From the IMG/VR virus record IMGVR_UViG_3300044729_001198, positions 122,632-186,631 of that record: 64,000 nt of DNA; one strand, written 5' to 3'. Positions 13,496-33,145 of the stretch are shown piece by piece. Source of the stretch: a virus. The stretch's first letter is position 1; every line of letters begins with the position of its first letter. A model generated the notes under the pieces. The model searched no databases and was not told the DNA's origin. It saw only the letters and a list, made by a program, of their open reading frames with translations. The position numbers and the translations under genes are program-made.

Positions 13496-14410
13496 TTAGA
13501 TACTTGTTATAATATTTAACATCATCGCCATCACGTTAATTTCTTTGTCTACTACCATTGAGTCTTTGTATTGACCATCTGCGATGTTTAGAATAGTCTG
13601 ACCCACTTTGTTGTTAGCGTATTCATCAACTCGGTCGTACAACAAACGATACAACGGAGTGAAATCTTTTACACCCGAATCTGCAATGATTTGACGTACA
13701 CTTACAAATTTAGATTTAGCATCACCATTACCTTGAAGAACCTTGACAACCTCTTCAGCATAATTCGCCTGAATTGTGGATTGTTTGTCGATTACTAACT
13801 TCTTGTTGATGACTTGTCGTTGAGCTGCGTTTAACACCCTACGAATGTCAGGATATCCACTATTAACAAGAACAGCAAGGTCCGACATTTCAAACTCAAC
13901 ACCTTCAGTTGTTAGAATATCATTCAATCGTTTTGCAACATCCTTTTTTGATGGTGGTGTAATAGCAAACGTTTGACAACGTGATTGAATTGGGTCGATG
14001 ATTTTTTCGACATAGTTACACGTCAAAATGAATCGGGTCGACTTACTAAAAGTTTCCATCAAATTACGGAGAGCTGCTTGAGCATTTGGTGTCAAGTAAT
14101 CAGACTCATCCAAAATAATGATTTTCCACTTTCTGAATCCCATTGATGAAGCGAACCCACGGATTTTGTCACGAACCGTGTCAACGTTGTTCTCATCAGA
14201 TGCGTTGATGTACATGACATCACAATCAATCTGATTTGTAATGATTTTAGCCAATGTGGTTTTACCCGTACCGGCTTGACCATACAACAGCAAATGTGGT
14301 ACGTCTTCGTTCTCAATGTAGATTTTTACTTTCTCAAGGATATGTTCGTTTCCGACATAACCTTCTAACGTATCGGGTCTATATTTTTCAACCCATAATG
14401 TATTACTCAT
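13496..14410 (-). CDS. gp44: Clamp loader AAA+ subunit (T4 gp44/RFC-like)
   Basis: WVEKYRP, GQAGTGKT, NASD, ILDESD, SRC; start at 14410 (ATGA overlap). Confidence 0.95.
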   Translation of the reverse strand: MSNTLWVEKYRPDTLEGYVGNEHILEKVKIYIENEDVPHLLLYGQAGTGKTTLAKIITNQIDCDVMYINASDENNVDTVRDKIRGFASSMGFRKWKIIILDESDYLTPNAQAALRNLMETFSKSTRFILTCNYVEKIIDPIQSRCQTFAITPPSKKDVAKRLNDILTTEGVEFEMSDLAVLVNSGYPDIRRVLNAAQRQVINKKLVIDKQSTIQANYAEEVVKVLQGNGDAKSKFVSVRQIIADSGVKDFTPLYRLLYDRVDEYANNKVGQTILNIADGQYKDSMVVDKEINVMAMMLNIITSI

Positions 14411-15597
14411 CTTCCTACTTCGTTTAAATACTTTTCTTTTGCGGCTTCCCAAGACATACCAATAATATCAAGGTAAAATAATGGTTCTGGTTTTATACGA
14501 CCCTCTTCGTGTAGTTTCTCATAACGAGATACTGCCTTCTTTTTCCACCAATTCATAGTGTATTCATCGCCTTTAGCAAATTTGTCTTTTAATACCAATT
14601 GGTCTTCGGTGATTTCATTTCGGAGAAACTCATTACCATTCTCATACATTTGAGCAAAGTATACACCCCTCTTAAATCCATGTTGATATTTAGAAGATTT
14701 GATACCAAGCTCCTTGAATATCATATTAATGATTTTTTGTTTTACTCCGGTAGCAGGTCCATCGACATTTGCCTTTTCAGCAGTTTGTCTTGCGTATTCT
14801 TCCGGCTGATTTTCCTTCATCCAATGATGCCATACTTCATATACCGAATCATCTGGTTTAGTAGCAACCTTACCTGCGGACTCACCAAGTGTTTTGAAGT
14901 GTGGGATGCCATTGTATTGTGAATGGATTCCATACAAAGATGTAGTACCGACAGCAATCAAAGTCTGACCATACTTTTCTTTCCAATACTTTCTTACGAT
15001 TGGTGATGTAGCCATACAAGCAATCAACTTACCACCCAAGAAGTTGTATCCCAATGGTTGGGTACATACAATAGTAGTAGCAATTGTTGTATGATTTAAT
15101 TTACCATCTTTGTATTTGTTGTCTTGAGTCCACCCAATATAAGCATCCCTTACACCCAAAGAGGTGACATCTGAACCTAACGAAATCATACCTAATACCT
15201 TACCACTAACTCGGTCTTTAACATAAATCTTGACATTACGACCGGGATTGGCTGAAAAAGCCATGGTGTGAATTAGTTTACGGATTTCAGTCCAACGAGT
15301 CGATTCTTTAGAATCATCAACAATCTCTACATAGGGTTCGAGTGCCATAACCTCTTTTATAGTTTGTTCTTTATTATAGATGTCAGTTGGCATCCACAAA
15401 GAATCAATATAAGTAGCCATAGCAGCCTTCCTCTTCATTGAGGATGGTAGGTCGGAATTCCACTCTTCCCATTTCTTGTAAAGAGTTTGTTCTTCAACAG
15501 ACATAGAAGAAAGGTAGTCCATATTATCTATGAACTTTTTCTTTTCAGCCGTGTAGTCGAACTCCGGTTTCGCTGGTTCAGTATCCCAAAAACTCAT
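14407..15597 (-). CDS. DUF4338/DruA-like protein (putative GNAT-like fold)
   Basis: NPGRNVK, GKVLGMISLGSD, RD.YIGW, PLGYNFLGGKLIA, TTSLYG..SQYN motifs recalled from DUF4338. Confidence 0.65.
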   Translation of the reverse strand: MSFWDTEPAKPEFDYTAEKKKFIDNMDYLSSMSVEEQTLYKKWEEWNSDLPSSMKRKAAMATYIDSLWMPTDIYNKEQTIKEVMALEPYVEIVDDSKESTRWTEIRKLIHTMAFSANPGRNVKIYVKDRVSGKVLGMISLGSDVTSLGVRDAYIGWTQDNKYKDGKLNHTTIATTIVCTQPLGYNFLGGKLIACMATSPIVRKYWKEKYGQTLIAVGTTSLYGIHSQYNGIPHFKTLGESAGKVATKPDDSVYEVWHHWMKENQPEEYARQTAEKANVDGPATGVKQKIINMIFKELGIKSSKYQHGFKRGVYFAQMYENGNEFLRNEITEDQLVLKDKFAKGDEYTMNWWKKKAVSRYEKLHEEGRIKPEPLFYLDIIGMSWEAAKEKYLNEVGR

Positions 15598-16292
15598 TAC
15601 TTAATCTCTACTAAATAGTAATTAGATTTAAACCCATCATGTTCGAATGCAACATGAGCAAGACCTTGAGACGAAATCTTCAAAGAAGATGCTTTTGCAC
15701 CTCGGTTAGCATTCAAGATTTCTTTAAGGTATTTAGCCGAGAATGAAATTGGTTCAACGTCAGATACACAAGTACACTCAACGTTGATGGAAATTCGGTT
15801 CGAGTTAATTTTAGAATATCCCAAAATAACCTCACCTTTGTTACCCTTACACTTAAATGTAAATGTGTCGGAGTCACTCAAAGCACCTTTTGATTTGATG
15901 AACTTACCAACGAACTCATCGTCAAGTGTAACGTTTGAACCAAACTCCGGAAGAGTTTTCAGTTCAGGAACTACAGGAATTACTGACAAGTCAGCCAACA
16001 TATAGTTTACAGACGTACCATTGTCTGAAAATACTAATGATGCCTCACCTTGTTCTACTTTGACGTTTGAATCCAAAACACCAAGAAGACCTTTTAGTTG
16101 TGAAGTCGTGTAAACACCAAACTCACCATTTGGAAATTCTTTCTCTTCAGTCTCAACACTACCCAATAGGGTTTTGTCATCGGAGATGAATCGAACAGAC
16201 ATTCCTTCATCAGTTGAGTTGATTTTTACGGATTCAACCTCACCACCCAAATTGTAACGGGCTACAAACCCTTCAAATGAACTTTTTTTCAT
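15597..16292 (-). CDS. gp45: Sliding clamp (T4 gp45-like)
   Basis: Size, FGVYTTSQL..LL, FSAKYLK motifs; next to the clamp loader. Confidence 0.75.
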   Translation of the reverse strand: MKKSSFEGFVARYNLGGEVESVKINSTDEGMSVRFISDDKTLLGSVETEEKEFPNGEFGVYTTSQLKGLLGVLDSNVKVEQGEASLVFSDNGTSVNYMLADLSVIPVVPELKTLPEFGSNVTLDDEFVGKFIKSKGALSDSDTFTFKCKGNKGEVILGYSKINSNRISINVECTCVSDVEPISFSAKYLKEILNANRGAKASSLKISSQGLAHVAFEHDGFKSNYYLVEIK

Positions 16293-16312
16293 GTTTTTAT
16301 TTTTTATTTAGA

Positions 16313-16344
16313 CAAATATACGAAATTATTTTGAATTATCCAAA
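16313..16344 (-). promoter_or_regulatory. Bacteroidota-type promoter
   Basis: TTTG-N20-TATATTTG upstream of the sliding clamp. Confidence 0.75.
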
Positions 16345-16947
16345 CCATTGGTGGATTTTTTGCTTTCTTTTTTTGAATCGGTAAATGTAAATGTTCTTTG
16401 TAAGGGTTTCCACATACTTAGCACTTCCATCATCCAATGCGTTTTTCAATTCAATAGCAACGGGCTTTAGTTTCCCATTGTGTTTGTTTCTTAAAGTTTT
16501 GTCGTGATACCTACGACCATTCCACATAATAACCCTTCCGGCTGAAGTTTCACCTACACATTCAAAGTTTGTAGCTTTATAAACCACACCTTCATGTCCA
16601 AATGTTTTATCAGCATATGAGATTATCATTTCTAAATCAGTATTTCGTTGTAACCACCGAAGCGTCCAACCTATGAAATAAGATTCAGTATTCTTTGGAG
16701 TATCATCAATACACACGAGTCGTTTTAACTCCAAAATCTTTGATGGATTGTTGGTGTACTTTTCAGCAACCCCAACCATACCCAACGACCCATACACCAT
16801 AGCACCAATCATAGTATCACCATCCATCAACTTAAAGCAATATGAAATGTGTAATCCATTCATATTTTTTGAATAGTGATGAGTTTCCACAAATTTTACA
16901 ATCTCACTCCGTGGACATAATTCTACTATGTAATTGGTTACACTCAT
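16336..16947 (-). CDS. Mom-like GNAT DNA-modification protein (copy 1)
   Basis: HYS, GAMVYG, LELKRL, NTESYFIG, ISYAD..GHEG.VYKATNF. Confidence 0.75.
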   Translation of the reverse strand: MSVTNYIVELCPRSEIVKFVETHHYSKNMNGLHISYCFKLMDGDTMIGAMVYGSLGMVGVAEKYTNNPSKILELKRLVCIDDTPKNTESYFIGWTLRWLQRNTDLEMIISYADKTFGHEGVVYKATNFECVGETSAGRVIMWNGRRYHDKTLRNKHNGKLKPVAIELKNALDDGSAKYVETLTKNIYIYRFKKRKQKIHQWFG

Positions 16948-17150
16948 TAATTTGTTCGATTGTTGAACTCGTCCTCCAACATTTCATTAATTTTTTCAAT
17001 GGTGTACGCATTTTGTAAAACTGAATCTAACACATCGTACGCGCCATCCTCCGAAATATCACCATATCGGTGGACATCATCGGTGTGCCAGAGATTATCT
17101 ACATAGTAACCATGTTCTTTTAATACTTGTTTTGCTTGTTCAATATTCAT
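16947..17150 (-). CDS. Hypothetical acidic protein
   Basis: Fills the gap between PolB and Mom1; likely start MNIEQ at 17150. Confidence 0.5.
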   Translation of the reverse strand: MNIEQAKQVLKEHGYYVDNLWHTDDVHRYGDISEDGAYDVLDSVLQNAYTIEKINEMLEDEFNNRTN

Positions 17151-17160
17151 ATCATTCAAA

Positions 17161-19683
17161 TTAAAATCCAAAAAATTGTGATGCTTTTTCAAGATTTGGG
17201 TTTGGTTTATCCCAACCCATAGCATCGTAGAAGTCGGTAATCTTGTTTTCCAACTCTTTTTCCCAAATCAAGTCCACATCGATGTGTTGACGAATCATGT
17301 CTTCAATTTGAGTTGGGTCGTTATGACCGGTGAAAGCCGTTGCCTCAATTCCAAGTGGGTTCTTTTTAAGATATACCCATTTGATTTTATCACCATCCTT
17401 CATAGGTTCATATTTGTAAGGAGCATCAAAGAATTTCAACAATCGATTGTACGTTATAGCAGCCTTAACGTGTGCTGGTGTACCTTTCTCAAACTCATTC
17501 AAAGAATATACGTTTCGCTTCTTGATATACTTTGACATATCTTTCACAGCAGAGTTCTTTGCGATATCCACGAAATTTTGGTCTGACATCTTGTCTTTGA
17601 ACTCAATAATCTTTGCGTCAATTTCTGATTTGTTAACACCTTTTAGGATATCCAACAACACAGTCTCCATTACCTTTTTAAAATATGTTGGGAATGATGA
17701 CCTACGAACATCCAATCCTTTTACATCCATCTTATCACACGGAACAGTATTGTCGTTGATAATCCATTGAGCATATCTTTTCTTTGATACCCAAAATCCA
17801 CCTTTTGCAATAGTTTCTTGTTTGATGTCAAATCGGTGAGAATTCACATTGAACAATTTTTTAGACATTGTGTCATAGACCTTGTTGATGTGTTCTTGAA
17901 CTTCTTTAGCTACCGACAAAATAGCGGGAACCATTTGTTCATCGGATGTGGGGTCAATATCTGGATTTCTGGCTTGAACCAATGGTAGTGCTTGATAAAA
18001 CACGGAGTCGGTATCGGTATACACGTTATAGTCTCCATCCTTACCAATGATTTTTGTGTAGTATTGGTTAGCTATCTTTTCAGTAGTCTTAATTACAGTT
18101 TGACCGGTGATAGTGGTAGCTTCAGCATTATCCACATCGTAGAATCTAAACGATGGTAATCCCAATACCCCATACAATGAGTTCAACATAATCTTTTGAA
18201 CTAACTGACGTTGGGAATAAAATTTGTAAAGGTCGGTCTTACCTTCCTTACCATATTGTTTTTCCAACTTTCGATACTCAACACGTTTATCAAACCACAC
18301 ATTTAAGATTTCAGGTATAACCCCAATCTTGTCTTGGGTGTATAAAACACCATTTGATGAAATTGAATAGTTAGATTCTTGGATTAGCTTTTGAAACTGT
18401 TCTTTATTCAAAGGTGGATATTGTGTACCATTTTCTTCGACAATTACATAAGACTCAATCATGTCTTTCATATAATCCTCTGAAGAGAATGATTTTAACT
18501 TACCAATCTTGGTTTCGGGGCTAACATTCAATGTCATAATGATAGATGGATATAGAGATGTCAAGTCCAAGTCATATACCCACTTGTAAAGACCAGGTTT
18601 TGGTTCTTTAACATAAGCACCTGTAAACTTTTCTTCACCATCAGTACCATCCTCATTTTTATCAGCTCTATGAGGTTTGTCAGGAGCAACACGGCCGCTC
18701 CTACGCAAGAACGTCAAGATAGCACCTTCTAACCATTTTGATGAGAATAAGAAATCTTCATAGAAAACGTGACCGGCGTGACAAATCGCTTGAGCAAGTT
18801 CAATGAACTGAAGTTTTTTATCCATGTCTACCACCAACTCAACGTCAACCAAGTTGTACTCAATGAATTTTTCAATGTCATCACGGAACAATTGGTCAAG
18901 ATTACCCTTGTATTCAATTTTACCACGACCCAATACGATATTAGCGATGGTGTCCAATCGATAGTTAGGGAATTCTTGGTAGGTAAAGTTTTTGTAGAGA
19001 GCCAAGTAGTCCAAACAACTCACCCCAGCAATGATATAACGATTACGATATTTGTTGTACCCAATCTTACCAATAGGCGATAGTTTGTTTGCCATTCGTT
19101 CACCCACAACATTCTTGAGTCGATTGTACAAATATGTAATATCAAAGTAGTCAATATTCCAACCCGTTACAATTGTTGGATTAATTTCTTGCCACTTGTT
19201 TAAGAATGATACCAATAGGTCTTCTTCAGTATCGAATGAACGAACCTCGGCTCCTTTAATACGTTTGTTAATATTACCACCCTTACTTACAACATATACA
19301 AAGTAATCGTTTGTAACCGAATCATGTCCTGCGATTGATGTAATCTCATTTTCAGCTTTATTGATATCTGGAAGACCAGAATTCATCTCAACCTCAATAT
19401 CGAATGTCAAGACTGTATGACCTGTAGATACTTCATCTGAATCGCCATACTCGTCAATCAAGAAACGAGTTACCTCGTTCACATCAGATTCGTATAGTTT
19501 TAGATTATCTTCTTTTTTCCAAAAGTTTATCTTTTTAAGACGCTCTCCGTGAATAGAAGTAAAAGCACCACTCCCATCTCTAACATAAGCATATCTACGG
19601 TACTTACTTGTAAAATAACCCTTTTTGTCATCCCAACAATGGATGATACTTTGTTCCTTATCATAGTATACATTTTGATACAT
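17161..19683 (-). CDS. gp43: Family B DNA polymerase (T4 gp43-like)
   Basis: Exo FDIE, GWNIDYFD, YNLVD; pol DLTSLYPS, K..LNSLYG, YTDTDS. Confidence 0.97.
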   Translation of the reverse strand: MYQNVYYDKEQSIIHCWDDKKGYFTSKYRRYAYVRDGSGAFTSIHGERLKKINFWKKEDNLKLYESDVNEVTRFLIDEYGDSDEVSTGHTVLTFDIEVEMNSGLPDINKAENEITSIAGHDSVTNDYFVYVVSKGGNINKRIKGAEVRSFDTEEDLLVSFLNKWQEINPTIVTGWNIDYFDITYLYNRLKNVVGERMANKLSPIGKIGYNKYRNRYIIAGVSCLDYLALYKNFTYQEFPNYRLDTIANIVLGRGKIEYKGNLDQLFRDDIEKFIEYNLVDVELVVDMDKKLQFIELAQAICHAGHVFYEDFLFSSKWLEGAILTFLRRSGRVAPDKPHRADKNEDGTDGEEKFTGAYVKEPKPGLYKWVYDLDLTSLYPSIIMTLNVSPETKIGKLKSFSSEDYMKDMIESYVIVEENGTQYPPLNKEQFQKLIQESNYSISSNGVLYTQDKIGVIPEILNVWFDKRVEYRKLEKQYGKEGKTDLYKFYSQRQLVQKIMLNSLYGVLGLPSFRFYDVDNAEATTITGQTVIKTTEKIANQYYTKIIGKDGDYNVYTDTDSVFYQALPLVQARNPDIDPTSDEQMVPAILSVAKEVQEHINKVYDTMSKKLFNVNSHRFDIKQETIAKGGFWVSKKRYAQWIINDNTVPCDKMDVKGLDVRRSSFPTYFKKVMETVLLDILKGVNKSEIDAKIIEFKDKMSDQNFVDIAKNSAVKDMSKYIKKRNVYSLNEFEKGTPAHVKAAITYNRLLKFFDAPYKYEPMKDGDKIKWVYLKKNPLGIEATAFTGHNDPTQIEDMIRQHIDVDLIWEKELENKITDFYDAMGWDKPNPNLEKASQFFGF

Positions 19684-20816
19684 TATCCGTTTAGTTTTTT
19701 ATGTAATTCTTGAATCATCTTGTCTTCGTTCAAAGATAGCTCCATTGCTCTTTGAAGTGACAATTTGTCTTGTTCTTGTCTGAATGTGTCATCATCCAAC
19801 ATTTTATCTAAATACGCAAAGAATTCTTTCTTGGTCTTAAAGAACATTCCGTTTGGGTCAATCTCATAGTAACAATCAGATTCTTGCCAAATCATTGGAG
19901 TTCCGTTCATCATACAATCCGTACCACTAACCGACCACCCATAGTTGGTTTGTCTCATCTGAACCCCAACCTTACAATTCTGAAGTCGTTGATAGTATTC
20001 GTGTTTTGGAACTTTTGTGTTGTCAATCCACGAGTGTGGAGCGTCACCTACTAATTGTGGAATCCAAACATTGAAGTCTTGTCGTTGTGTACGATACTCT
20101 TCCATCAATTCAATAAACTTTGGATATCCTTTGTATGCGGCCGCTCGATGGTTGAATACGATGGTATTTTCTTTTGAAAGTTTTACATCACCAACTATTT
20201 TATCTTGAGGTACACCCAAATTCCATACCTTTAAAATACCATCTAATTTTTGAACAAACTCATGGTTAAAAGTCTCCATTGCCTCATTTAAAACTCTATC
20301 TTTTTGGTCTTGGGTGTTAAGATAACAGACATCCATTTGTGATACTCCAAGGATTTCTATTGGTAACCACAACCATTTAGCTTTTCCAGCTCTATTGTCA
20401 GGCCCATTACATGACTTCATTTCCCACCAATGACAATAACCTACAATTTTAGTGTCCATTGATTTCTTGTATCTACCCACTTGCGGCCAGTCCGGTAAAT
20501 GTGAGTAGATTACATCATAATCAATGTCTTTCAGTAGGTTGATTAGTTTTGGAGATGGGAATGACCTCTGATTCATCATATCACCGGGAATATCAATCTG
20601 ATGTTGCTTGACGTTTGGCAAGTTCAACTTCTTACTGATTTTACCACTTGGCATGAGTATGTTCCAATAATACTCACCATATGATTCTAATGCTTTGATA
20701 TGATTATGTATCACATCTACAAAAGAATCTTTATCAATATTAGAAGAGTTGGTGATGTTCGGTATCACCAACACTTTCCGTGCTTTATTATAATCTATAC
20801 TATCCCAAAAACTCAT
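19683..20816 (-). CDS. GT-B fold glycosyltransferase coupled to PolB (possible DNA glycosyltransferase)
   Basis: IVFNHR...YKG, Y..L..CKVG, YGWSVS..D.MMNGTP; TAATG overlap with polB. Confidence 0.6.
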   Translation of the reverse strand: MSFWDSIDYNKARKVLVIPNITNSSNIDKDSFVDVIHNHIKALESYGEYYWNILMPSGKISKKLNLPNVKQHQIDIPGDMMNQRSFPSPKLINLLKDIDYDVIYSHLPDWPQVGRYKKSMDTKIVGYCHWWEMKSCNGPDNRAGKAKWLWLPIEILGVSQMDVCYLNTQDQKDRVLNEAMETFNHEFVQKLDGILKVWNLGVPQDKIVGDVKLSKENTIVFNHRAAAYKGYPKFIELMEEYRTQRQDFNVWIPQLVGDAPHSWIDNTKVPKHEYYQRLQNCKVGVQMRQTNYGWSVSGTDCMMNGTPMIWQESDCYYEIDPNGMFFKTKKEFFAYLDKMLDDDTFRQEQDKLSLQRAMELSLNEDKMIQELHKKLNG

Positions 20817-20820
20817 TTAC

Positions 20821-20852
20821 CTAATATACAAAATAATTTTTACATTTACAAA
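20821..20852 (-). promoter_or_regulatory. Bacteroidota-type promoter
   Basis: TTTG-N20-TATATTAG upstream of the GT-PolB operon. Confidence 0.65.
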
Positions 20853-21260
20853 TCAGACCATTGGAAATCCAACAGCTGAATTTGTCGTTGAACGATATTG
20901 TGGTGCGTTTGAACTCCAACCTTTTGAGTGATTACTAAAAGGCCGGCTACCAAATGAATTAGCTACCATTGGTGACGGTTGTCCAATACTATCCCAACTA
21001 CTTTCAAACTTTTCAACAACAGTACCCTCTTTAAATGTAATCGTTGACTCATCAAACGAATCTAACATTTTCATAGATACTTTACGAAACACATTCTTCC
21101 GCTCTGGCTTAATTACTTCAATGAATAAAAGTGAACGTACTTTAACACGACATACTTTTAAATTCATTGAGAACAATACACCTTTAACAGGTATAACCAC
21201 CTTTACAATTTTACCTTGAAGTTCTGATAATTCCATACTCATCATATTATTACTATACAA
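20853..21260 (-). CDS. Hypothetical protein with its own promoter
   Basis: ORF fills the gap; host-type promoter overlaps its 5' end. Confidence 0.5.
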   Translation of the reverse strand: MYSNNMMSMELSELQGKIVKVVIPVKGVLFSMNLKVCRVKVRSLLFIEVIKPERKNVFRKVSMKMLDSFDESTITFKEGTVVEKFESSWDSIGQPSPMVANSFGSRPFSNHSKGWSSNAPQYRSTTNSAVGFPMV

Positions 21261-21289
21261 AGATAAGGAATTAATTTGACATATACAAG
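21258..21289 (-). promoter_or_regulatory. Bacteroidota-type promoter
   Basis: CTTG-N20-TATCTTTG. Confidence 0.65.
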
Positions 21290-21294
21290 CCTTT

Positions 21295-22089
21295 TTACCA
21301 AAAGTTTACTTTATTTTCCGGCTCGTAAGTTTCGTATCGTTCTGCCTTTGGTAGAATATCATTGATATCTTTTGGTGGAGTTTCACATGGGTGTTTCAAA
21401 GAATTCAACAACTTTTTCTTTTCAGACTTGTTCGTTGGTAGAATTTGAATGTATCGTAGTTTGGACATTTCTTTTCTACGCCAGAACTCTTTATACCCAT
21501 CCTTACCAATTTCAGTTTTGAGGTGTTCCAAGTTATGTGACCCCCAACGTGAGAATACAGTCCGTGAATGAATGTACTGACCATCCTCACCTTCCAAACA
21601 AATTCCATAATTTGGCATTAATTGTATTTTGTTTGTATCTTGAAATAACCAATTCGTAGCACGATAGATACCACCCAAGTGACCTTGGAACGGGTCTGAA
21701 TATGATAGTAACATTTTGATATTTGGAGCGTGTTCTCTCATCCACTTAAATGTTTGACCCAAAGCGTATGATTCAATATTAGACCCATACCCATCGTGAA
21801 TGAACAATCGAGTCAACTCTAAACATTGGTCATTACCCAACCCATCAATTATTGAGGTTACAGCCGACCTGCCAACAGGAAATCCATAGACAGCAACACC
21901 AATCAGTTTTTCATCATTACCAAGAATGTCTTTCTCATCGGTTTTGTAAAACACACCCAATGCGTATCTACACATGGTCCAAGCGTGCGAATAGTGATAC
22001 GTTACAATCATATCTTTTGCAATCGCTTTGTTAATCTCACGAATTGATACTCGTGAGGTGTCCACATAATGTTTATTTTCCTGTTTCAA
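21295..22089 (-). CDS. Mom-like GNAT DNA-modification protein (copy 2)
   Basis: HYSHAW, GVAVYG.P, LELTRLFI, NIESY, SYSDP.QGH.G.IY.ATNW; TTG start at 22089 gives MKQENKHYVDTSRV, which aligns with the copy 3 N-terminus. Confidence 0.75.
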   Translation of the reverse strand: MKQENKHYVDTSRVSIREINKAIAKDMIVTYHYSHAWTMCRYALGVFYKTDEKDILGNDEKLIGVAVYGFPVGRSAVTSIIDGLGNDQCLELTRLFIHDGYGSNIESYALGQTFKWMREHAPNIKMLLSYSDPFQGHLGGIYRATNWLFQDTNKIQLMPNYGICLEGEDGQYIHSRTVFSRWGSHNLEHLKTEIGKDGYKEFWRRKEMSKLRYIQILPTNKSEKKKLLNSLKHPCETPPKDINDILPKAERYETYEPENKVNFW

Positions 22090-22699
22090 AATTAAAAAAA
22101 TGAGAATGGGTAGTAGTTGAACTTTCGATGAAACTAGCCAAAAAGTCATGTAGTTTATAGTATGGTTTAACGATATTAGACCATTTATAATTTACTTCTT
22201 GATGCTGTACATCTTTGTCACATTCAATCTTGTCGTTGTTTACAAAAATTACATTTTCAATACCAGCAGGTAACATTCTTAAATATTTTGAATTTCCTGT
22301 ACATAAAACACCTTTACTGTCTTTCGTAATCACAATATATTTTATACCCATTTTATGGTATCTCTCAATGTGTAGAATGGAAGCATATGCTGAATTGTCT
22401 TGGAATGATGATTTTGATGATAGTATAAGTTGAACTTTTCCAAATGGGTCAATCAATACAAAATCAACATCGGGAATATCACCATTCCATGCAATTTGTT
22501 TAAAAATTTCACTTGTTGGTTTTGTACTACCTATGTGTACAATATCCCATCCGGAGTACCACCTTAAAATTCTCGTAACATCATCAACGAGATATTTTTC
22601 AAGAGCATCGCCTCTTAATTTAAGAATAGAACCTAAATGGCTCATTGCGTCTTTTTCTTCGGGTTTAATTAAATCGCCTAATAATTCTACTCCTGTCAT
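22073..22699 (-). CDS. Putative type II restriction-endonuclease-like PD-(D/E)XK protein
   Basis: RGDALEKYL, IPDVDFVL, LILSSKSSFQD. Confidence 0.5.
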   Translation of the reverse strand: MTGVELLGDLIKPEEKDAMSHLGSILKLRGDALEKYLVDDVTRILRWYSGWDIVHIGSTKPTSEIFKQIAWNGDIPDVDFVLIDPFGKVQLILSSKSSFQDNSAYASILHIERYHKMGIKYIVITKDSKGVLCTGNSKYLRMLPAGIENVIFVNNDKIECDKDVQHQEVNYKWSNIVKPYYKLHDFLASFIESSTTTHSHFFNFETGK

Positions 22700-23451
22700 T
22701 TTACAATTGGTTCTAATTTATGTATCTCTTCTTCAAAGACCTCACTTACTTTTGGATATGGTAGTGATGGATACTTCAATGTATCAAATATACGATTTTT
22801 TTTCGACTTATCCAAAATATAAACATATCTATGTTTCCTTGGTTCTTTTTTAATCCAAAATGGTTTATCTACCATTTCTTGTATTTTTGTAGGATTGTTT
22901 GTACCATATCTAACAAACGAAGTTCTACTATGATGCCATTCATCGGTTTCATCCCATTTGAATGACCACGAATCATTGGGTCGGATTCTATTACCTTGAT
23001 ATATCCAATTTGTAGACTGATACACAGTACCCAAGTGTCCTACTTTAGGGTCTGAATATGATACCAATGCTCTAATGTGTGGTACGTTTTGACGTAACCA
23101 TTTAAAGGTCTGGCTTACAAACCAACTTTCAATGTTACAACCATAACCATCAAATACAAATAGTCGGGTCAACTCAAGGACTTCAGTTCGGTCAAGAAGT
23201 GGAGAAATGGATTGGCCGGAGTGTCTACCTACAGGATCTCCATAAGTAGCAACTCCGACCAACTCTTCATTTACACCACTAAAAAATTGATGTTCACTTT
23301 CTGATTTGTAAAATAACCCAAGAGCATAAGATACCTTTGTCCAAATACCACTATAGTGATTGTTTACAATGATATCTTTTGCAATTGATTTTGCGATAGG
23401 TCTTACCGAAAATTTACTTATGTCAGAATAAAGTTTACCTTCAACTTTCAT
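22696..23451 (-). CDS. Mom-like GNAT DNA-modification protein (copy 3)
   Basis: HYSGIW, GVATYG.P, LELTRLFV, NIESWFV, SYSDP..GH.G.VYQ.TNW. Confidence 0.75.
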   Translation of the reverse strand: MKVEGKLYSDISKFSVRPIAKSIAKDIIVNNHYSGIWTKVSYALGLFYKSESEHQFFSGVNEELVGVATYGDPVGRHSGQSISPLLDRTEVLELTRLFVFDGYGCNIESWFVSQTFKWLRQNVPHIRALVSYSDPKVGHLGTVYQSTNWIYQGNRIRPNDSWSFKWDETDEWHHSRTSFVRYGTNNPTKIQEMVDKPFWIKKEPRKHRYVYILDKSKKNRIFDTLKYPSLPYPKVSEVFEEEIHKLEPIVK

Positions 23452-29587: not shown

Positions 29588-30946
29588 TTAGAAATCCATC
29601 CCACCATTGATTTCTTTATATTTTTGTAACAATTCTTTTCTTACTAAACTCTCCCCACCTTTCATCTCTTTTTGTGTTTGTTTACCATCAATGGAAGCGT
29701 CATCAAATATCTGAATTTGACCATTTGAGAAGTTTGCTTTCGATGGGAAAGTCATACCATCAGGTCCAAACCGATTCTTAATAACGTGCCATCGACCAGT
29801 ACCACTTAACTTATCTTCAATCTTACGAGACAATGAAATTACAAAGTCAGCAGTCATCATTTTTGAGAATGAACCTGCGATTTTAGTACCTGTAATAATG
29901 TCATCTTCTGCCCCACTACGATTGATTTGAGATGCCGTGTAAATTGGGACTTCATATTCACCAGCCATACCACGGAGGTCTTCGATAATTTCTTCTAACT
30001 CTTCGTGTCGTTTTTCTTTGGACGGCCCTCTTAACAAATCAGCATAATCTACAATTACAACATCAGGACGCTTTCCTTGTAGAATCATTCTATCCAAGTG
30101 AGCTCTTAACGAGGTTACACTGGCAGTCTTGGTAGGGTAATACTTTACAATTAGGTCACCCTTTACGGACTTGACCATTTTGTCTACTTCCTCTCGGTTA
30201 AATTTTAGGTTAGCGACAGGTATGCCCGTTAAAACAGCATCATATCTTTGACCAACGTAACCTTCATTTAATTCCAATGTATAGTGGGCTACCGTCTTAC
30301 CTTGTTTCATAGCATTAACACCAATGTTAATTAATGACCAAGATTTACCAATTCCCGGAGGAGCAGCAAACATTACAAGTTCACCCTTACCAAAACCACC
30401 TTGTGTAACATCATCAATCACTTTCCAACCAGTAGATACCACGTTTCTAATTGTGTCTTCGTATCTAACATCAATCATTGTTTTGTAATCATGACCAATA
30501 TCTTGTGATTGACCTGATTTCATAGCATCATCAATCTTTTTCTTGATTGTATCGTATTTACCTTGTTCGAGTAATGATACTGAATCGAGAATAGCGTTCT
30601 TGATTGATTGATTTCTACAAAACTCTACCGATTGTTCTTTTACATAGTCTAAATCCTCGCTTTCAAGATTAGTCCAAGCGGATTTTAAAGTATCAACAAT
30701 TGAAGTCTTTAAAACATCACGTTCAACCGAATTAATCTTTACCTTCAGTACATCGAGGGTTGGTAACGTCTCATATGTGTCCATATAGGACATTATTTCC
30801 TTAACCAACCACTCCGATGCCTCTGAATCGAAATATTGTGGTTTAAGGATATCAAACACCTGTCTGGTAAAAACTCTATCACCAAGTAAGGATGATATAA
30901 CTTTTATCTGAAATGTGTTTGAGAACTTCGTTCCGAATTTTTCCAT
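29588..30946 (-). CDS. gp41: DnaB-like replicative helicase (T4 gp41-like)
   Basis: APPGIGKS, YTLE, IVDYAD, ASQINR, KNRFG. Confidence 0.92.
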   Translation of the reverse strand: MEKFGTKFSNTFQIKVISSLLGDRVFTRQVFDILKPQYFDSEASEWLVKEIMSYMDTYETLPTLDVLKVKINSVERDVLKTSIVDTLKSAWTNLESEDLDYVKEQSVEFCRNQSIKNAILDSVSLLEQGKYDTIKKKIDDAMKSGQSQDIGHDYKTMIDVRYEDTIRNVVSTGWKVIDDVTQGGFGKGELVMFAAPPGIGKSWSLINIGVNAMKQGKTVAHYTLELNEGYVGQRYDAVLTGIPVANLKFNREEVDKMVKSVKGDLIVKYYPTKTASVTSLRAHLDRMILQGKRPDVVIVDYADLLRGPSKEKRHEELEEIIEDLRGMAGEYEVPIYTASQINRSGAEDDIITGTKIAGSFSKMMTADFVISLSRKIEDKLSGTGRWHVIKNRFGPDGMTFPSKANFSNGQIQIFDDASIDGKQTQKEMKGGESLVRKELLQKYKEINGGMDF

Positions 30947-30950
30947 AAAC

Positions 30951-30981
30951 CAAATATACGAATTTATTTTCTATTATCAAA
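30951..30981 (-). promoter_or_regulatory. Bacteroidota-type promoter
   Basis: TTTG-N19-TATATTTG upstream of the helicase. Confidence 0.72.
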
Positions 30982-32019
30982 ATGATTTTTAAGATTTGTG
31001 TCCAAGCTTGTGAATGAATTTCTCAACCACGAGTCCACATTAGCAAATGCGGTGTACAATTTATCGTACATGAACATTTTCTTGAACTCAACTAAATCAA
31101 GAGCAGGTCTATGGTCATCCATAATGGCTCTAACATTTGATTTAATTGATGATGAGATTTCAGGGTCTCGTAACTGCATTAAGTCGTAATTTAAAGTTAT
31201 TGTATCTTTAGATTCTAACAATTTCTTTGATAACTTTTCATCACATTCAGTAGAACACCCATCCAAAAACCCATCCAGAGATAATTCTCCATTATTCAAG
31301 AATGTCATTTTTTGAGAAATGGTTTTTTCACCAATACCCTTAACTCCTGATATATTATCCGAAGCGTCTCCGGTTATAACCCTATAAAATACCAAGTTTT
31401 GAGGTATAACACCATACTCTTCTCGTACCAAAGCCTCATCATACATTTTTTTCTTGGTAGAAGCCCAGACGTTAATTCGTGGGTTTACCAATTGAAGAAA
31501 ATCTTTATCAGATGATACAATTGTTACTTTTTCTTTGAAGTAATGTACAGCAAGATATGCTATAATGTCATCTGCTTCAACGTGGTCTATGTAAGTTATA
31601 GTGATTGGTAGAACTTGTAGATATTCTATGAGTCTTGCAAATTGTTTTCTCATAGAGGCTGATTGGTCTTCTAAATCCTCATATCCAGCAAGTCTATTTA
31701 ACTTGGTCAAGCCAGTACGACCCTCTTTGTATTGTTTATAAACTGATTTTCTACGATTAGAACCACCTTTACCATCGAACACAATAACAACACGAGTTGG
31801 TTTAAGAGTTCGGATGGTAGCAGCGGTGGACAGTAAGAAACCTGTCACACCACCACAATGTTCACCATCATCATTTAAGGCAGGAACTGCACCAAAGACT
31901 CGAATGAACTGATTCAGTCCATCTATGATTAGAACTCTATCGTTTAACTCTTCAGTTTTTACTTCACTATGTTCCTTTTCTACTTCTTTGAGCAGTTCTT
32001 TATACCTATTAATCATCAA
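30964..32019 (-). CDS. 5'-3' exonuclease / flap endonuclease (T4 RNase H-like)
   Basis: IIDG, VFDG, YK..R, EADD, SSDKD, GD.SDNI.GV.GIG.KT. Confidence 0.92.
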   Translation of the reverse strand: MMINRYKELLKEVEKEHSEVKTEELNDRVLIIDGLNQFIRVFGAVPALNDDGEHCGGVTGFLLSTAATIRTLKPTRVVIVFDGKGGSNRRKSVYKQYKEGRTGLTKLNRLAGYEDLEDQSASMRKQFARLIEYLQVLPITITYIDHVEADDIIAYLAVHYFKEKVTIVSSDKDFLQLVNPRINVWASTKKKMYDEALVREEYGVIPQNLVFYRVITGDASDNISGVKGIGEKTISQKMTFLNNGELSLDGFLDGCSTECDEKLSKKLLESKDTITLNYDLMQLRDPEISSSIKSNVRAIMDDHRPALDLVEFKKMFMYDKLYTAFANVDSWLRNSFTSLDTNLKNHFDNRK

Positions 32020-33145
32020 AATCAGTTAATTCAACATTATCAATATTAGCTTCTTCACCTGCCTCTTTGTAAGACATAATGTATGTGTCACAAATTTGTT
32101 GGTAAATCGTCTCCTTTAACTCGGGGTCACTTGTAAGCGTTTCTTCAAAGTTTTTAGCTTGGAACTTAATTTCTTCACCTGTAATTTTGTTAACATAGGT
32201 GTACCAAGCCCCACTTTGATTTACAAGTTTGTAGGTCTTCATCATTTCCAACCAAGAACCATAATTATCAATACCACTATCAAAGTAGATATCATAATCA
32301 ACCGAACGTAGCGGTGGCCCCATTCGATTCTTGATAACTTGAGCACGAGTTTTGATACCAACAACTTGTTCTACACCACCAACTTTAGCTTTTAACTGGC
32401 CCATTTGTTTCAATCGAAGTCTACATGACGAGTGGAATGCAATTGCCTTACCACCACTTGTTGTCCATGGGTCACCAAACGAGACTCCCATACGAGTACG
32501 AAGTTGGTTTGTAAAGATTAATGAGATACGTTCACGGCCAATTAGGTTTGTGACTTTTCTCATAGCCTTTGAAATGATAATTGCCTTTTGAGTTGCATAA
32601 CCGGCTTGGTCATAGTCGGCTGAAATCTCAACCTTTGTAGAAGCACCAGCAACGGAGTCAACTACAATGGTAACCAACTTTTTCTTGTCACCATCAGCGG
32701 CTCTAACTGACTCGATAATTGAATCAATTGCTTCAAAGATGTCTTCAACGGTTTCCAATGGAACGTATAACATCTTACGAATGTCCACTCCAATTGCTTC
32801 AAGAAATTCTTGGTTTAGAGCATTTTCGGTGTCAATGTAAACACCCAACCCACCTTTACGTTGCGTATCAGCAATAGCATGAGCCGCAAGGAGTGATTTA
32901 CCACTACCTTCTAATCCTGTAATCTCGGTAATACGACCTACTGGCAAACCACCATGGGGTCTATTAGAGATAGCCAAGTCCAACATAGGAGAGCCGGTAG
33001 ACACCCACTCATCCAAATCGGTGGGTGTCTGTTCCGAGCCATCCAAGAAAAAAGCGACTTTGTGAGCCGATTTGAATTTCTTGTTTAGATTGGTAGCGAG
33101 GATTGACGATAGTTCATCACGAACTGAATCTTTCTTTCCTGCCAT
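32009..33145 (-). CDS. recA: RecA/UvsX recombinase
   Basis: GLEGSGKS, YIDTENA, IVVDSVA, FTNQLR, GGKA..F, KNR. Confidence 0.93.
   Translation of the reverse strand: MAGKKDSVRDELSSILATNLNKKFKSAHKVAFFLDGSEQTPTDLDEWVSTGSPMLDLAISNRPHGGLPVGRITEITGLEGSGKSLLAAHAIADTQRKGGLGVYIDTENALNQEFLEAIGVDIRKMLYVPLETVEDIFEAIDSIIESVRAADGDKKKLVTIVVDSVAGASTKVEISADYDQAGYATQKAIIISKAMRKVTNLIGRERISLIFTNQLRTRMGVSFGDPWTTSGGKAIAFHSSCRLRLKQMGQLKAKVGGVEQVVGIKTRAQVIKNRMGPPLRSVDYDIYFDSGIDNYGSWLEMMKTYKLVNQSGAWYTYVNKITGEEIKFQAKNFEETLTSDPELKETIYQQICDTYIMSYKEAGEEANIDNVELTDFDD

What the first reader, a model, noticed from the sequence alone, without database searches (positions are those of the whole stretch)
14407..23451. Shared terminal aromatic motifs suggest sliding-clamp-tethered DNA-modifying enzymes
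Seen: PolB ends SQFFGF, Mom1 ends HQWFG, Mom2 ends VNFW, Mom3 has an internal HQFFSG, the nuclease has HFFNF near its end, and both the DruA-like protein and the PolB-linked GT begin MSFWD. Established: T4/RB69 PolB binds gp45 through a C-terminal hydrophobic-aromatic peptide, and PCNA PIP boxes use Q..(FF). Inference: several modifiers dock on the clamp and modify DNA as it is replicated.
Basis: partly seen in the sequence, partly recalled or inferred. Interest (0 to 1): 0.72.

Follow-up and report, generated by a model that had tools for sequence, protein, structure and literature searches.

The report
Clamp-docking tags on phage DNA modifiers
In this uncultured 187-kb marine phage, several unrelated DNA-modifying enzymes carry a tiny, strictly conserved Phe-Phe or Phe-Trp tag on a floppy chain end. 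The tag resembles the tail that ties the DNA polymerase to the sliding clamp, so these enzymes probably ride on the clamp and modify new DNA as it is copied, but binding has not been measured.

Summary
Five are conserved short linear motifs:
- PolB tail xFF[GS]F
- Mom1 tail WFG(F)
- Mom2 terminal FW, invariant in 29 unique orthologues after a variable linker
- N-terminal M(x)FWD of the DruA-like protein (38 unique)
- N-terminal MxFW[DE] of the PolB-linked glycosyltransferase (14 unique)

The genome's endonuclease I carries the same FF tail.

Two motifs are weaker. Mom3's internal HQFF is conserved, but it sits at a hairpin tip that reads DILG/DVFG in Mom2. The nuclease is a gene insertion seen only in this genome, so its HFFNF cannot be tested.

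The PolB tail aligns with the clamp-binding tails of T4 and RB69 gp43. The clamp model has a PCNA/gp45 fold. Accessory-enzyme tails track the PolB tail of their own lineage:
- L071 lineage: KFF in PolB, an amidotransferase and a GNAT.
- Phage Melnitz lineage: PolB TLEDFFG, Mom-like TLEGFF, kept in 58 relatives.

T4 gives precedents for C-terminal (gp43, gp55, gp33), N-terminal (RNase H) and internal-loop (ligase) clamp peptides.

The DruA-like protein models as a GNAT whose closest solved structure is Mu Mom. Its first five residues are predicted disordered.

Clamp docking is the best explanation (about 0.6), but binding is untested. This scan has reported the same pattern in at least eight other phage genomes.

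The parts
17161..19683 (-). Family-B DNA polymerase of the gp43 type. The C-terminal tail ..LEKASQFFGF (tag at 17164-17181) is the reference clamp-binding peptide.
   Evidence: PF00136/PF03104 and phrog_262. RB69 gp43 matches at E 4e-84, with the alignment ending 18 residues before the C-terminus. Tails compared: T4 EEKASLDFLFG, RB69 EKKASLFDMFDF. xFF[GSAE]F is kept in about 80 orthologues of 46-95% identity.
15597..16292 (-). Sliding clamp, a two-domain PCNA/gp45-type protomer; the proposed docking platform.
   Evidence: phrog_223 at E 4e-11. AF2 model with pLDDT 92. Foldseek to PCNA chains at E 1e-13, TM 0.75. 76 orthologues in the PolB loci.
13496..14452 (-). RFC/gp44-like clamp-loader ATPase.
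   Evidence: phrog_168 at E 3e-81; PF00004 and PF21328 Gp44_lid.
14407..15597 (-). DruA-like (PF14236) GNAT-fold protein between the clamp and clamp-loader genes. The N-terminal tag MSFWD lies at 15583-15597.
   Evidence: PF14236 at E 1e-24. F3, W4 and D5 are invariant in 38 unique orthologues. Synonymous and whole-codon changes around TTTTGGGA[TC] point to selection on the protein. AF2 pLDDT is 94, with residues 1-5 below 50. The best structural match is Mu Mom 8bv8, Z 10.0.
16336..16947 (-). Mom1, a Mom-family GNAT. C-terminal tag ..KKRKQKIHQWFG at 16339-16353.
   Evidence: PF25680 at E 5e-34. WF is invariant in 7 unique orthologues; the 76%-identity orthologues end LKWFGF.
19683..20816 (-). 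GT-B-like glycosyltransferase whose stop overlaps the PolB start. It has a 13-residue N-terminal extension MSFWDSIDYNKAR (tag at 20802-20816).
   Evidence: Weak PF13439 and PF13524 hits. MxFW[DEG] is kept in 14 unique orthologues. The 30%-identity type B paralogues at the same locus start directly at the first strand (MRVLVIPNY), and type C starts MSKFFTD.
21295..22089 (-). Mom2, a Mom-family GNAT with its true start at TTG 22089. Terminal tag ..PENKVNFW at 21298-21309.
   Evidence: PF25680 at E 2e-46. The terminal FW is invariant in 29 unique orthologues of 56-95% identity, after a poorly conserved linker of about 25 residues and variable length. The Polaribacter phage P12002L homologue lacks this tail. 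The start was checked.
22696..23451 (-). Mom3, a Mom-family GNAT with no terminal aromatic tag. The internal HQFFSG (residues 54-59, 23275-23292) sits at a beta-hairpin tip.
   Evidence: PF25680 at E 4e-45. H-x-FF is invariant in 28 unique orthologues. The same hairpin in Mom2 reads DILG, DVFG or EFFG and is absent from Mom1.
22073..22699 (-). 208-aa nuclease-like ORF inserted between Mom3 and Mom2, with HFFNF at 22088-22102. It probably does not belong to the tag system.
   Evidence: No Pfam or PHROG family. No relative in viral contigs or in the 80 PolB loci. In relatives Mom3 directly abuts Mom2.

Best explanation
The terminal aromatic pairs are short docking peptides on flexible chain ends. 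They most likely insert into the hydrophobic pocket of the phage's own PCNA/gp45-type clamp, the same site used by the polymerase tail.

Proposed clients besides PolB are Mom1, Mom2 (perhaps acting together with untagged Mom3), the DruA-like GNAT, the PolB-linked glycosyltransferase, and endonuclease I elsewhere in the genome. Clamps loaded at the fork and left on new duplex DNA would concentrate these enzymes on freshly made, still unmodified DNA. That would couple post-replicative modification to replication.

Shown here:
- the motifs, their conservation and their disorder;
- homology of the PolB tail to the T4/RB69 tails;
- the clamp fold;
- matching of accessory tails to the PolB tail within each lineage.

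Inferred, not shown:
- physical binding to the clamp;
- that the N-terminal and C-terminal tags use the same site;
- the chemistry and the target base of each modifier.
For: 1. Anatomy of a short linear motif. The aromatic pairs are invariant at the extreme termini, next to variable linkers that also vary in length. DruA-like residues 1-5 have pLDDT below 50 in a model of pLDDT 94. The GT tag sits on a 13-residue extension that type B paralogues lack. The Mom2 tail is missing from the homologue in a small siphovirus.

2. The polymerase tail is a clamp peptide by homology. KAS followed by an aromatic stretch aligns with the T4 and RB69 gp43 tails. Those tails bind gp45 (PMC3012046, PMC2988020).

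3. The clamp has a PCNA/gp45 fold.

4. Accessory tails match the PolB tail lineage by lineage:
- Window: PolB SQFFGF; Mom1 HQWFG; endonuclease I QSFF.
- Endonuclease I orthologues..FFDFSK..FFG or ..FF, with FF kept in all complete copies among 80 loci.
- L040/L075: PolB SEFFGF; Mom1 LKWFGF.
- L071: PolB KKFFSF; AsnB-like amidotransferase DKFFG; GNAT EKFFNI.
- Phage Melnitz: PolB TTLEDFFG; Mom-like ATLEGFF. The pattern [ST]-L-[DES]-x-F-F is kept in nearly all of 58 unique relatives.

5. The N- and C-terminal tags look like one class. FFDY occurs at the N-terminus of a DruA-like paralogue and at the C-terminus of endonuclease I orthologues. Among distant DruA-like representatives, 15 of 103 carry [FWYLM][FW][DE] in the first 16 residues, against 2.6 expected.

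6. Gene position. The DruA-like gene lies between the clamp and clamp-loader genes here, and between gp44 and gp62 in cyanophages. Among 50,697 cultured phage records it occurs only in T4-like marine myoviruses.

7. T4 precedents exist for N-terminal (RNase H), C-terminal and internal-loop (ligase LDFLF) clamp peptides. The RB69 pocket is hydrophobic with two basic residues, which fits an aromatic pair followed by an acidic residue (PMC3012046, PMC6212786).
Against: - No binding measurement and no multimer model; the tools fold single chains only.
- The shared core is only two aromatic residues, and the canonical PIP box Qxxhxxaa is not met.
- Tags are not universal. GT type B, Mom3, the Aeromonas AS-zj Mom, and the cyanophage and pelagiphage DruA-like proteins lack them.
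- The window's RNase H homologue, the expected N-terminal positive control, has no such tag.
- No gp55 homologue was found to serve as a second control.
- The one experimental precedent for a clamp-bound phage DNA modifier, T4 alpha-glucosyltransferase with gp45, was not reproduced in a 2025 preprint (10.64898/2025.12.06.692756).
- Mu Mom works on dsDNA without any clamp (PMC13219725).
Confidence: 0.6

Rival explanations
1. The tags are real docking peptides, but for a different shared partner. Candidates are the clamp loader, the single-strand-binding protein, the helicase, the polymerase itself, or a scaffold of a multi-enzyme modification complex. The N-terminal FWD class and the C-terminal FF/FW class may also bind different partners.
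For: Conservation and disorder show a docking peptide but not its partner. The DruA-like gene neighbours the clamp-loader genes as much as the clamp gene. The N-terminal class differs in polarity from the PolB tail. The RNase H homologue lacks it.
Against: The C-terminal class follows the PolB tail of each lineage closely, and that tail binds the clamp in T4 and RB69. In T4, clamp peptides occur at either terminus (PMC3012046). FFDY occurs at both termini in this clade.
Confidence: 0.22
2. The aromatic pairs are unrelated functional or structural elements of each enzyme. Examples would be a wedge that flips the target base, a contact with the tRNA or sugar donor, or a strand that packs back onto the fold. 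The resemblance to the PolB tail would then be coincidental.
For: Mom3's HQFF lies at a hairpin tip that carries a hydrophobic pair in Mom2 (DILG, DVFG) and in the clamp-less Polaribacter phage homologue (DELF). That suggests a feature of the fold. The shared core is only two residues.
Against: The terminal tags sit on variable linkers or appended extensions that paralogues and outgroup homologues lack. The DruA-like N-terminus is predicted disordered. The same tag appears on at least six unrelated folds: GNAT, GT-B, endonuclease I, an amidotransferase and PolB.
Confidence: 0.13
3. Chance and composition: an AT-rich genome rich in Phe codons produces aromatic termini by accident.
For: Phe is common. 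Two identical four-residue starts among 256 proteins are not very improbable on their own. The nuclease HFFNF and the spurious MTFW start of the long Mom2 ORF show that such strings do arise by chance.
Against: There is a five- to eight-fold excess at C-termini. The pairs are invariant across 56-95% identity orthologues while the flanks diverge. Codon-level changes are synonymous or remove whole codons.
Confidence: 0.03

Closest known systems
T4/RB69 gp45 clamp clients: gp43 C-terminal tail, gp55 and gp33 C-terminal epitopes, RNase H N-terminal peptide, DNA ligase internal loop LDFLF
   Same: A short hydrophobic/aromatic, often acidic peptide on a divergent linker of variable length, at either terminus or in a loop, and similar to the polymerase tail of the same phage. 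The PolB here belongs to the gp43 family, and its KAS+aromatic tail aligns with theirs (PMC2988020, PMC3012046, PMC6212786).
   Different: The clients here are DNA-modification enzymes (Mom-type and DruA-like GNATs, a GT-B) and endonuclease I, not replication or late-transcription factors. The core is an adjacent aromatic pair (FF, FW, WF) rather than LDFLF. No gp55 homologue was detected. Binding is untested.
PCNA-interacting PIP box (Qxxhxxaa) and its DNA-modifying clients such as DNMT1 and UNG2 (recalled from established knowledge)
   Same: An aromatic pair that would plug a pocket on a PCNA-fold clamp, found at N- or C-termini. The concept is the same: a DNA-modifying enzyme tethered to the clamp behind the fork.
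   Different: The Q and the h position are mostly absent or wrongly spaced. The N-terminal tags have only one or two residues ahead of the aromatic pair. This is a phage system, not a eukaryotic one.
T4 alpha-glucosyltransferase-gp45 interaction (proposed 2004, cited and re-tested in 10.64898/2025.12.06.692756)
   Same: A phage GT-B DNA modifier proposed to ride on the clamp and modify DNA while it is replicated.
   Different: That interaction has no defined peptide and was not reproduced with C-terminally tagged protein. Here a defined, conserved tag is visible, but nothing has been measured.
Phage Mu Mom (PF25680; Gly-tRNA-dependent GNAT acting on dsDNA, PMC13219725)
   Same: Mom1, Mom2 and Mom3 are family members by HMM. 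The DruA-like model's best structural match is Mu Mom.
   Different: Mu has no clamp of its own, and Mom is not reported to bind one. The terminal tags and the hairpin insertion are additions seen in this clade.
ParB-dependent phage thymine dioxygenases (PMC13229309)
   Same: A DNA-hypermodification enzyme that depends on a partner of a DNA-clamp-forming family. Some DruA-like homologues carry an N-terminal ParB-like domain in place of the tag.
   Different: A different partner family (ParB CTPase fold, not PCNA/gp45), and the partner is a protein or domain rather than a short peptide tag.

Membership tests
gp45/PCNA clamp-interaction peptide (T4/RB69 type) | Lies at an extreme terminus or in a flexible loop, joined to the fold by a divergent linker | tested here: met
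   Mom2 has a variable linker with an invariant terminal FW. Mom1, the DruA-like protein and the GT carry their tags at the termini. DruA-like residues 1-5 have pLDDT below 50.
gp45/PCNA clamp-interaction peptide (T4/RB69 type) | Resembles the clamp-binding tail of the same phage's polymerase | tested here: met
   Window: QFFGF against QWFG and QSFF. L071: KFF in three proteins. Melnitz: TLEDFFG against TLEGFF. The match is weaker for Mom2 and the N-terminal tags, where only the aromatic pair, with or without an acidic residue, is shared.
gp45/PCNA clamp-interaction peptide (T4/RB69 type) | Binds the hydrophobic pocket of the clamp and depends on the aromatic residues | not testable with these tools
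   Only single-chain folding is available. No multimer model or binding assay could be run.
Canonical PIP box | Q-x-x-[ILM]-x-x-[FY]-[FY] | tested here: not met
   The aromatic pair is present. Q and h are missing or mis-spaced: PolB ..EKASQFFGF; Mom1 ..QKIHQWFG (I-x-x-W-F, but Q sits two residues before I); Mom2 ..ENKVNFW; the N-terminal tags have at most two residues ahead.
PCNA/gp45 sliding clamp (ORF 15597-16292) | Two-domain clamp protomer fold, encoded next to an RFC-like loader | tested here: met
   AF2 pLDDT 92. Foldseek to PCNA chains at TM 0.75. phrog_223. RFC/gp44-like gene at 13496-14452. Trimer formation was not tested.
Mom family (PF25680) | HMM match above the curated cut-off | tested here: met
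   Mom1 118 bits, Mom2 159 bits, Mom3 155 bits, against a cut-off of 27.1. Catalytic activity and donor substrate were not tested.
DruA (PF14236) | HMM match above the curated cut-off | tested here: met
   87 bits against a cut-off of 27. No other Druantia genes are nearby. It is a family member, not part of a Druantia system.
GNAT/Mom-like fold for the DruA-like protein | Structural similarity of the core to solved GNATs, Mom in particular | tested here: met
   VIA-align Z 10.0, rmsd 4.1 A, 172 residues to Mu Mom 8bv8_B. This was the top of 48,161 chains, with other GNATs at Z 8.6 or lower. The profile-profile comparison with the Mom alignment was not significant.

The most novel reading that the evidence does not exclude
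T4-related marine phages use a general clamp-docking code. A two-residue aromatic tag at either chain end would recruit a whole, fast-evolving toolkit of DNA-hypermodification enzymes to the phage's own sliding clamp, so that nascent DNA is modified at the fork. The toolkit would include Mom-type aminoacyl-tRNA-dependent GNATs, DruA-like GNATs, glycosyltransferases and amidotransferases. As a corollary, the DruA protein of the bacterial Druantia defence system would be a Mom-like DNA acyltransferase.
Probability: 0.45. Interest if true: 0.8.

Novelty: new variant of a known kind. Interest (0 to 1): 0.66.

Why it matters
How post-replicative DNA hypermodification keeps pace with replication, and so protects nascent phage DNA from restriction, is an open question. 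The only proposed case of a clamp-bound phage modifier, T4 alpha-glucosyltransferase, is disputed.

This clade and an independent one (Melnitz-like phages) offer defined, conserved peptides on Mom-type and other modifiers. These can be tested directly with peptides, a purified clamp and tag mutants.

If the hypothesis holds, it extends the clamp 'tool-belt' to DNA-modification chemistry in phages. It would also give a sequence rule for spotting DNA-acting enzymes among unannotated phage genes, namely a terminus that mimics the phage's own PolB tail. And it would link the unexplained Druantia protein DruA to Mom-like DNA acylation.

Tried and rejected
- **Close DNA relatives.** megablast of the region against cultured phages found nothing. 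The nearest cultured PolB is Microcystis phage Mel-JY01 at 49% identity.
- **Nuclease.** No family and no relative anywhere, so HFFNF cannot be tested. I treat it as chance.
- **Orphan tagged ORFs.** The three small ORFs ending NKFF, GDFW and TSWW have no family and almost no relatives. Only the GDFW protein has one 78%-identity orthologue, which ends GNFW.
- **Positive controls.**
  - phmmer with T4 gp55 and gp45 against the genome found nothing.
  - The RNase H homologue (30964-32019) has no N-terminal tag.
- **DruA-like against Mom.** hhalign of the DruA-like alignment against the Mom alignment gave probability 0.4. The relationship rests on the structure search alone.
- **Context of distant DruA-like representatives.** The look-up of encoding contigs returned only contigs of 2-6 kb, which are uninformative.
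- **A nucleotide-level cause for the N-terminal motif** (shared start-region signal). Rejected because upstream sequences differ, the second codon varies or is deleted in frame, and the D/E codons vary synonymously.
- **Multimer modelling.** I did not try to build a clamp-peptide fusion for folding.

Full report
**Setting**

The window is the last 64 kb of a 186.6-kb IMG/VR phage record that is about 98% complete. The nearest cultured PolB is that of Microcystis phage Mel-JY01 at 49% identity.

The block 13.5-23.5 kb is transcribed on the minus strand. In transcription order it encodes:
- Mom3
- an inserted nuclease-like ORF
- Mom2
- a 135-aa ORF
- a GT-B-like glycosyltransferase
- PolB
- a 92-aa ORF
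- Mom1
- the clamp
- a DruA-like protein
- an RFC/gp44-like clamp loader

Eighty related loci from viral metagenomes, with PolB at 46-95% identity, share the core order Mom3-Mom2-(variable genes)-PolB-(Mom1)-clamp-DruA-like-RFC.

**Observation**

Across the whole genome, 5 of 256 ORFs end exactly in [FW][FW], against 0.8 expected (P 0.0015). Seven do so if QWFG and QFFGF are counted. The extra cases are:
- endonuclease I (PF05367), which ends QSFF;
- three small orphan ORFs.

The 'MTFW' start of the long Mom2 ORF is an artefact. Orthologues begin 20 codons downstream, where the window has a TTG.

**Conservation**

- **PolB.** xFF[GSAE]F is kept in all complete orthologues of 55% identity or more. 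The more distant ones end KFFNFK and ERFF.
- **Mom1.** WF is invariant. The 76%-identity orthologues end LKWFGF, which is closer still to the PolB tail.
- **Mom2.** The last two residues, FW, are invariant in 29 unique sequences of 56-95% identity. The 25 residues before them are poorly conserved and vary in length. The 48%-identity homologue in the small Polaribacter siphovirus P12002L stops before this tail.
- **DruA-like.**
  - F3, W4 and D5 are invariant in 38 unique sequences.
  - The residue after Met varies or is deleted in frame, and the Asp codon varies synonymously.
- **GT.**
  - MxFW[DEG] is kept in 14 unique orthologues, on a 13-residue extension.
  - At the same locus, type B paralogues start directly at the first strand without a tag, and type C starts MSKFFTD.
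- **Endonuclease I.** All complete orthologues among 80 loci keep FF after a variable linker, as ..FFDFSK..FFDYSK..FFG or ..FF.

Further families in these loci also carry N-terminal tags of the form aromatic-aromatic-acidic:
- a 239-aa DruA-family paralogue (MSFFDY);
- a fourth Mom-family protein (MEFWK);
- an unannotated 543-aa protein that occupies the DruA position in more distant lineages (MNYFYE).

**Is the partner the clamp?**

The PolB belongs to the RB69/T4 gp43 family (E 4e-84). Its last 18 residues lie beyond the aligned thumb domain, as the gp43 tail does. The three tails share KAS followed by an aromatic stretch:

| Phage | PolB tail |
|---|---|
| T4 | EEKASLDFLFG |
| RB69 | EKKASLFDMFDF |
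| Window | LEKASQFFGF |

The literature on T4 and RB69 gives these points:
- The gp43 tail binds a hydrophobic pocket of gp45 that also carries two basic residues (PMC3012046).
- gp55 and gp33 carry interchangeable versions of the tail on divergent linkers (PMC2988020).
- RNase H carries its clamp peptide at the N-terminus (PMC3012046).
- DNA ligase carries LDFLF in an internal loop (PMC6212786).

The clamp ORF models with pLDDT 92 as a two-domain PCNA-like protomer.

Accessory tails follow the PolB tail of their own lineage:

| Lineage | PolB tail | Accessory tails |
|---|---|---|
| L071/L072 | KKFFSF | AsnB-like amidotransferase DKFFG; small GNAT EKFFNI |
| L040/L075 | SEFFGF | Mom1 LKWFGF; Mom2 hairpin GEFFGS |
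| Methylophilales phage Melnitz (distant T4-like) | TTLEDFFG | Mom-like ATLEGFF |

In the Melnitz lineage, nearly all of 58 unique relatives keep [ST]-L-[DES]-x-F-F. That is the form of the gp43 tails of Mosig, HTVC008M and S-SM2. I regard this as the strongest indirect evidence that Mom-type enzymes of clamp-encoding phages are clamp clients.

**The DruA-like protein**

A search of 1.84 billion representatives found 1126 homologues. Among 103 full-length distant ones:
- 15 carry [FWYLM][FW][DE] within the first 16 residues, against 2.6 expected. Examples are KFFDIEP, DFFDITEP and LFDFIEP.
- Five instead carry an N-terminal ParB-like domain.

The model (79 sequences, pLDDT 94) leaves residues 1-5 disordered. 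Its core, residues 81-328, matches phage Mu Mom best of 48,161 solved chains (Z 10.0, rmsd 4.1 A, 172 residues). Ordinary GNATs follow at Z 8.6 or lower.

Among cultured phages the family occurs only in 31 T4-like marine myoviruses. In cyanophages S-SM2 and S-SCSM2R the gene lies between the clamp-loader genes gp44 and gp62. These copies lack the N-terminal tag. So the link to the clamp operon is older than the tag.

**Weak points of the original list**

Mom3 has no terminal tag and ends KLEPI... Its HQFF is conserved, but it sits at the tip of a hairpin whose counterpart reads:
- DILG, DVFG or EFFG in Mom2;
- DELF in the Polaribacter phage homologue;
- nothing in Mom1, which lacks the hairpin.

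It could be an internal clamp loop, as in T4 ligase. It could equally be a DNA wedge or a fold element. I rate clamp binding there at about 0.3.

The nuclease is a gene insertion seen only in this genome, and its last residues (ETGK) look inherited from the former Mom3 tail (IERGK). HFFNF is best treated as chance.

**What argues against clamp docking**

- There are no binding data and no multimer model.
- The shared core is minimal.
- The canonical PIP box is not met.
- Several homologues lack a tag.
- The RNase H homologue has no tag.
- The T4 alpha-GT-gp45 precedent was not reproduced.
- Mu Mom needs no clamp (PMC13219725).

**Verdict**

No paper found in the held library links Mom-type or DruA-type enzymes to a sliding clamp.

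Notes from this scan report the same pattern in at least eight other phage genomes, with similar conclusions. One of them pointed me to the T4 RNase H N-terminal precedent, which I checked in PMC3012046.

Noticed in passing
window 22073-22699: The 208-aa nuclease-like ORF is an insertion between Mom3 and Mom2 found in none of the 80 related loci. Its last residues (..ETGK) resemble the Mom3 tail of relatives (..IERGK), and the window's Mom3 ends early (..KLEPIVK). The cassette therefore seems to have landed inside the Mom3 3' end.
   Followed up: partly
window 14407-15597: The DruA-family protein models as a GNAT whose closest solved structure is phage Mu Mom (Z 10.0). This suggests that DruA of the Druantia defence system is a Mom-like acyltransferase. 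The sequence profile comparison with Mom was not significant.
   Followed up: partly
proteins P0007, P0013, P0017, P0040, P0049: Distant DruA-like homologues of 550-630 aa carry an N-terminal ParB-like domain (..PNPxN..) in place of the short tag. This is a different way of attaching the enzyme to DNA and recalls ParB-dependent phage thymine dioxygenases.
   Followed up: no
L182 1306-2364 (S-SM2); L181 2510-3631 (S-SCSM2R): In T4-like cyanophages the DruA-like gene lies between the clamp-loader genes gp44 and gp62. These copies, and a second 379-aa ORF in HTVC008M, end in a conserved ..[IL]-x-I-I-R, not in an aromatic pair.
   Followed up: no
window 29588-30946 and 32009-33145: The DnaB-like helicase ends ..NGGMDF and the RecA/UvsX-like protein ends ..ELTDFDD. 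These are hydrophobic-acidic C-termini that my strict [FW][FW] scan did not count. They may be further clamp or SSB contact peptides.
   Followed up: no
window 19683-20816 and the same position in L005-L084: The slot just upstream of PolB is a variable cassette. It holds GT type A (MxFWD), type B (no tag, 30% identity), type C (MSKFFTD, 447 aa) or no GT. It is often preceded by unannotated 590-610-aa proteins ending ..NIFNG, ..LNFGA or ..NLFV.
   Followed up: partly
G000:C1:93759-94841 (outside the window): A thymidylate-synthase-family gene (PF00303, 316 bits) lies in a 371-aa open frame. I did not resolve whether it is ThyA or a pyrimidine hydroxymethylase that could supply an acceptor for the GT.
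   Followed up: no
L192 (Aeromonas phage AS-zj, near PolB): A 386-aa ORF beside the split PolB ends ..EVDQLFG, much like the PolB tail ..FSLDDLFG of the same phage. It may be another tail-mimicking client in a classical T4-like phage. The Mom of this phage has no tag.
   Followed up: no
window 21295-22149: The longest Mom2 ORF (284 aa, ATG) overlaps the nuclease by 77 nt. The orthologue-supported start is the TTG at 22089 (264 aa).
   Followed up: yes
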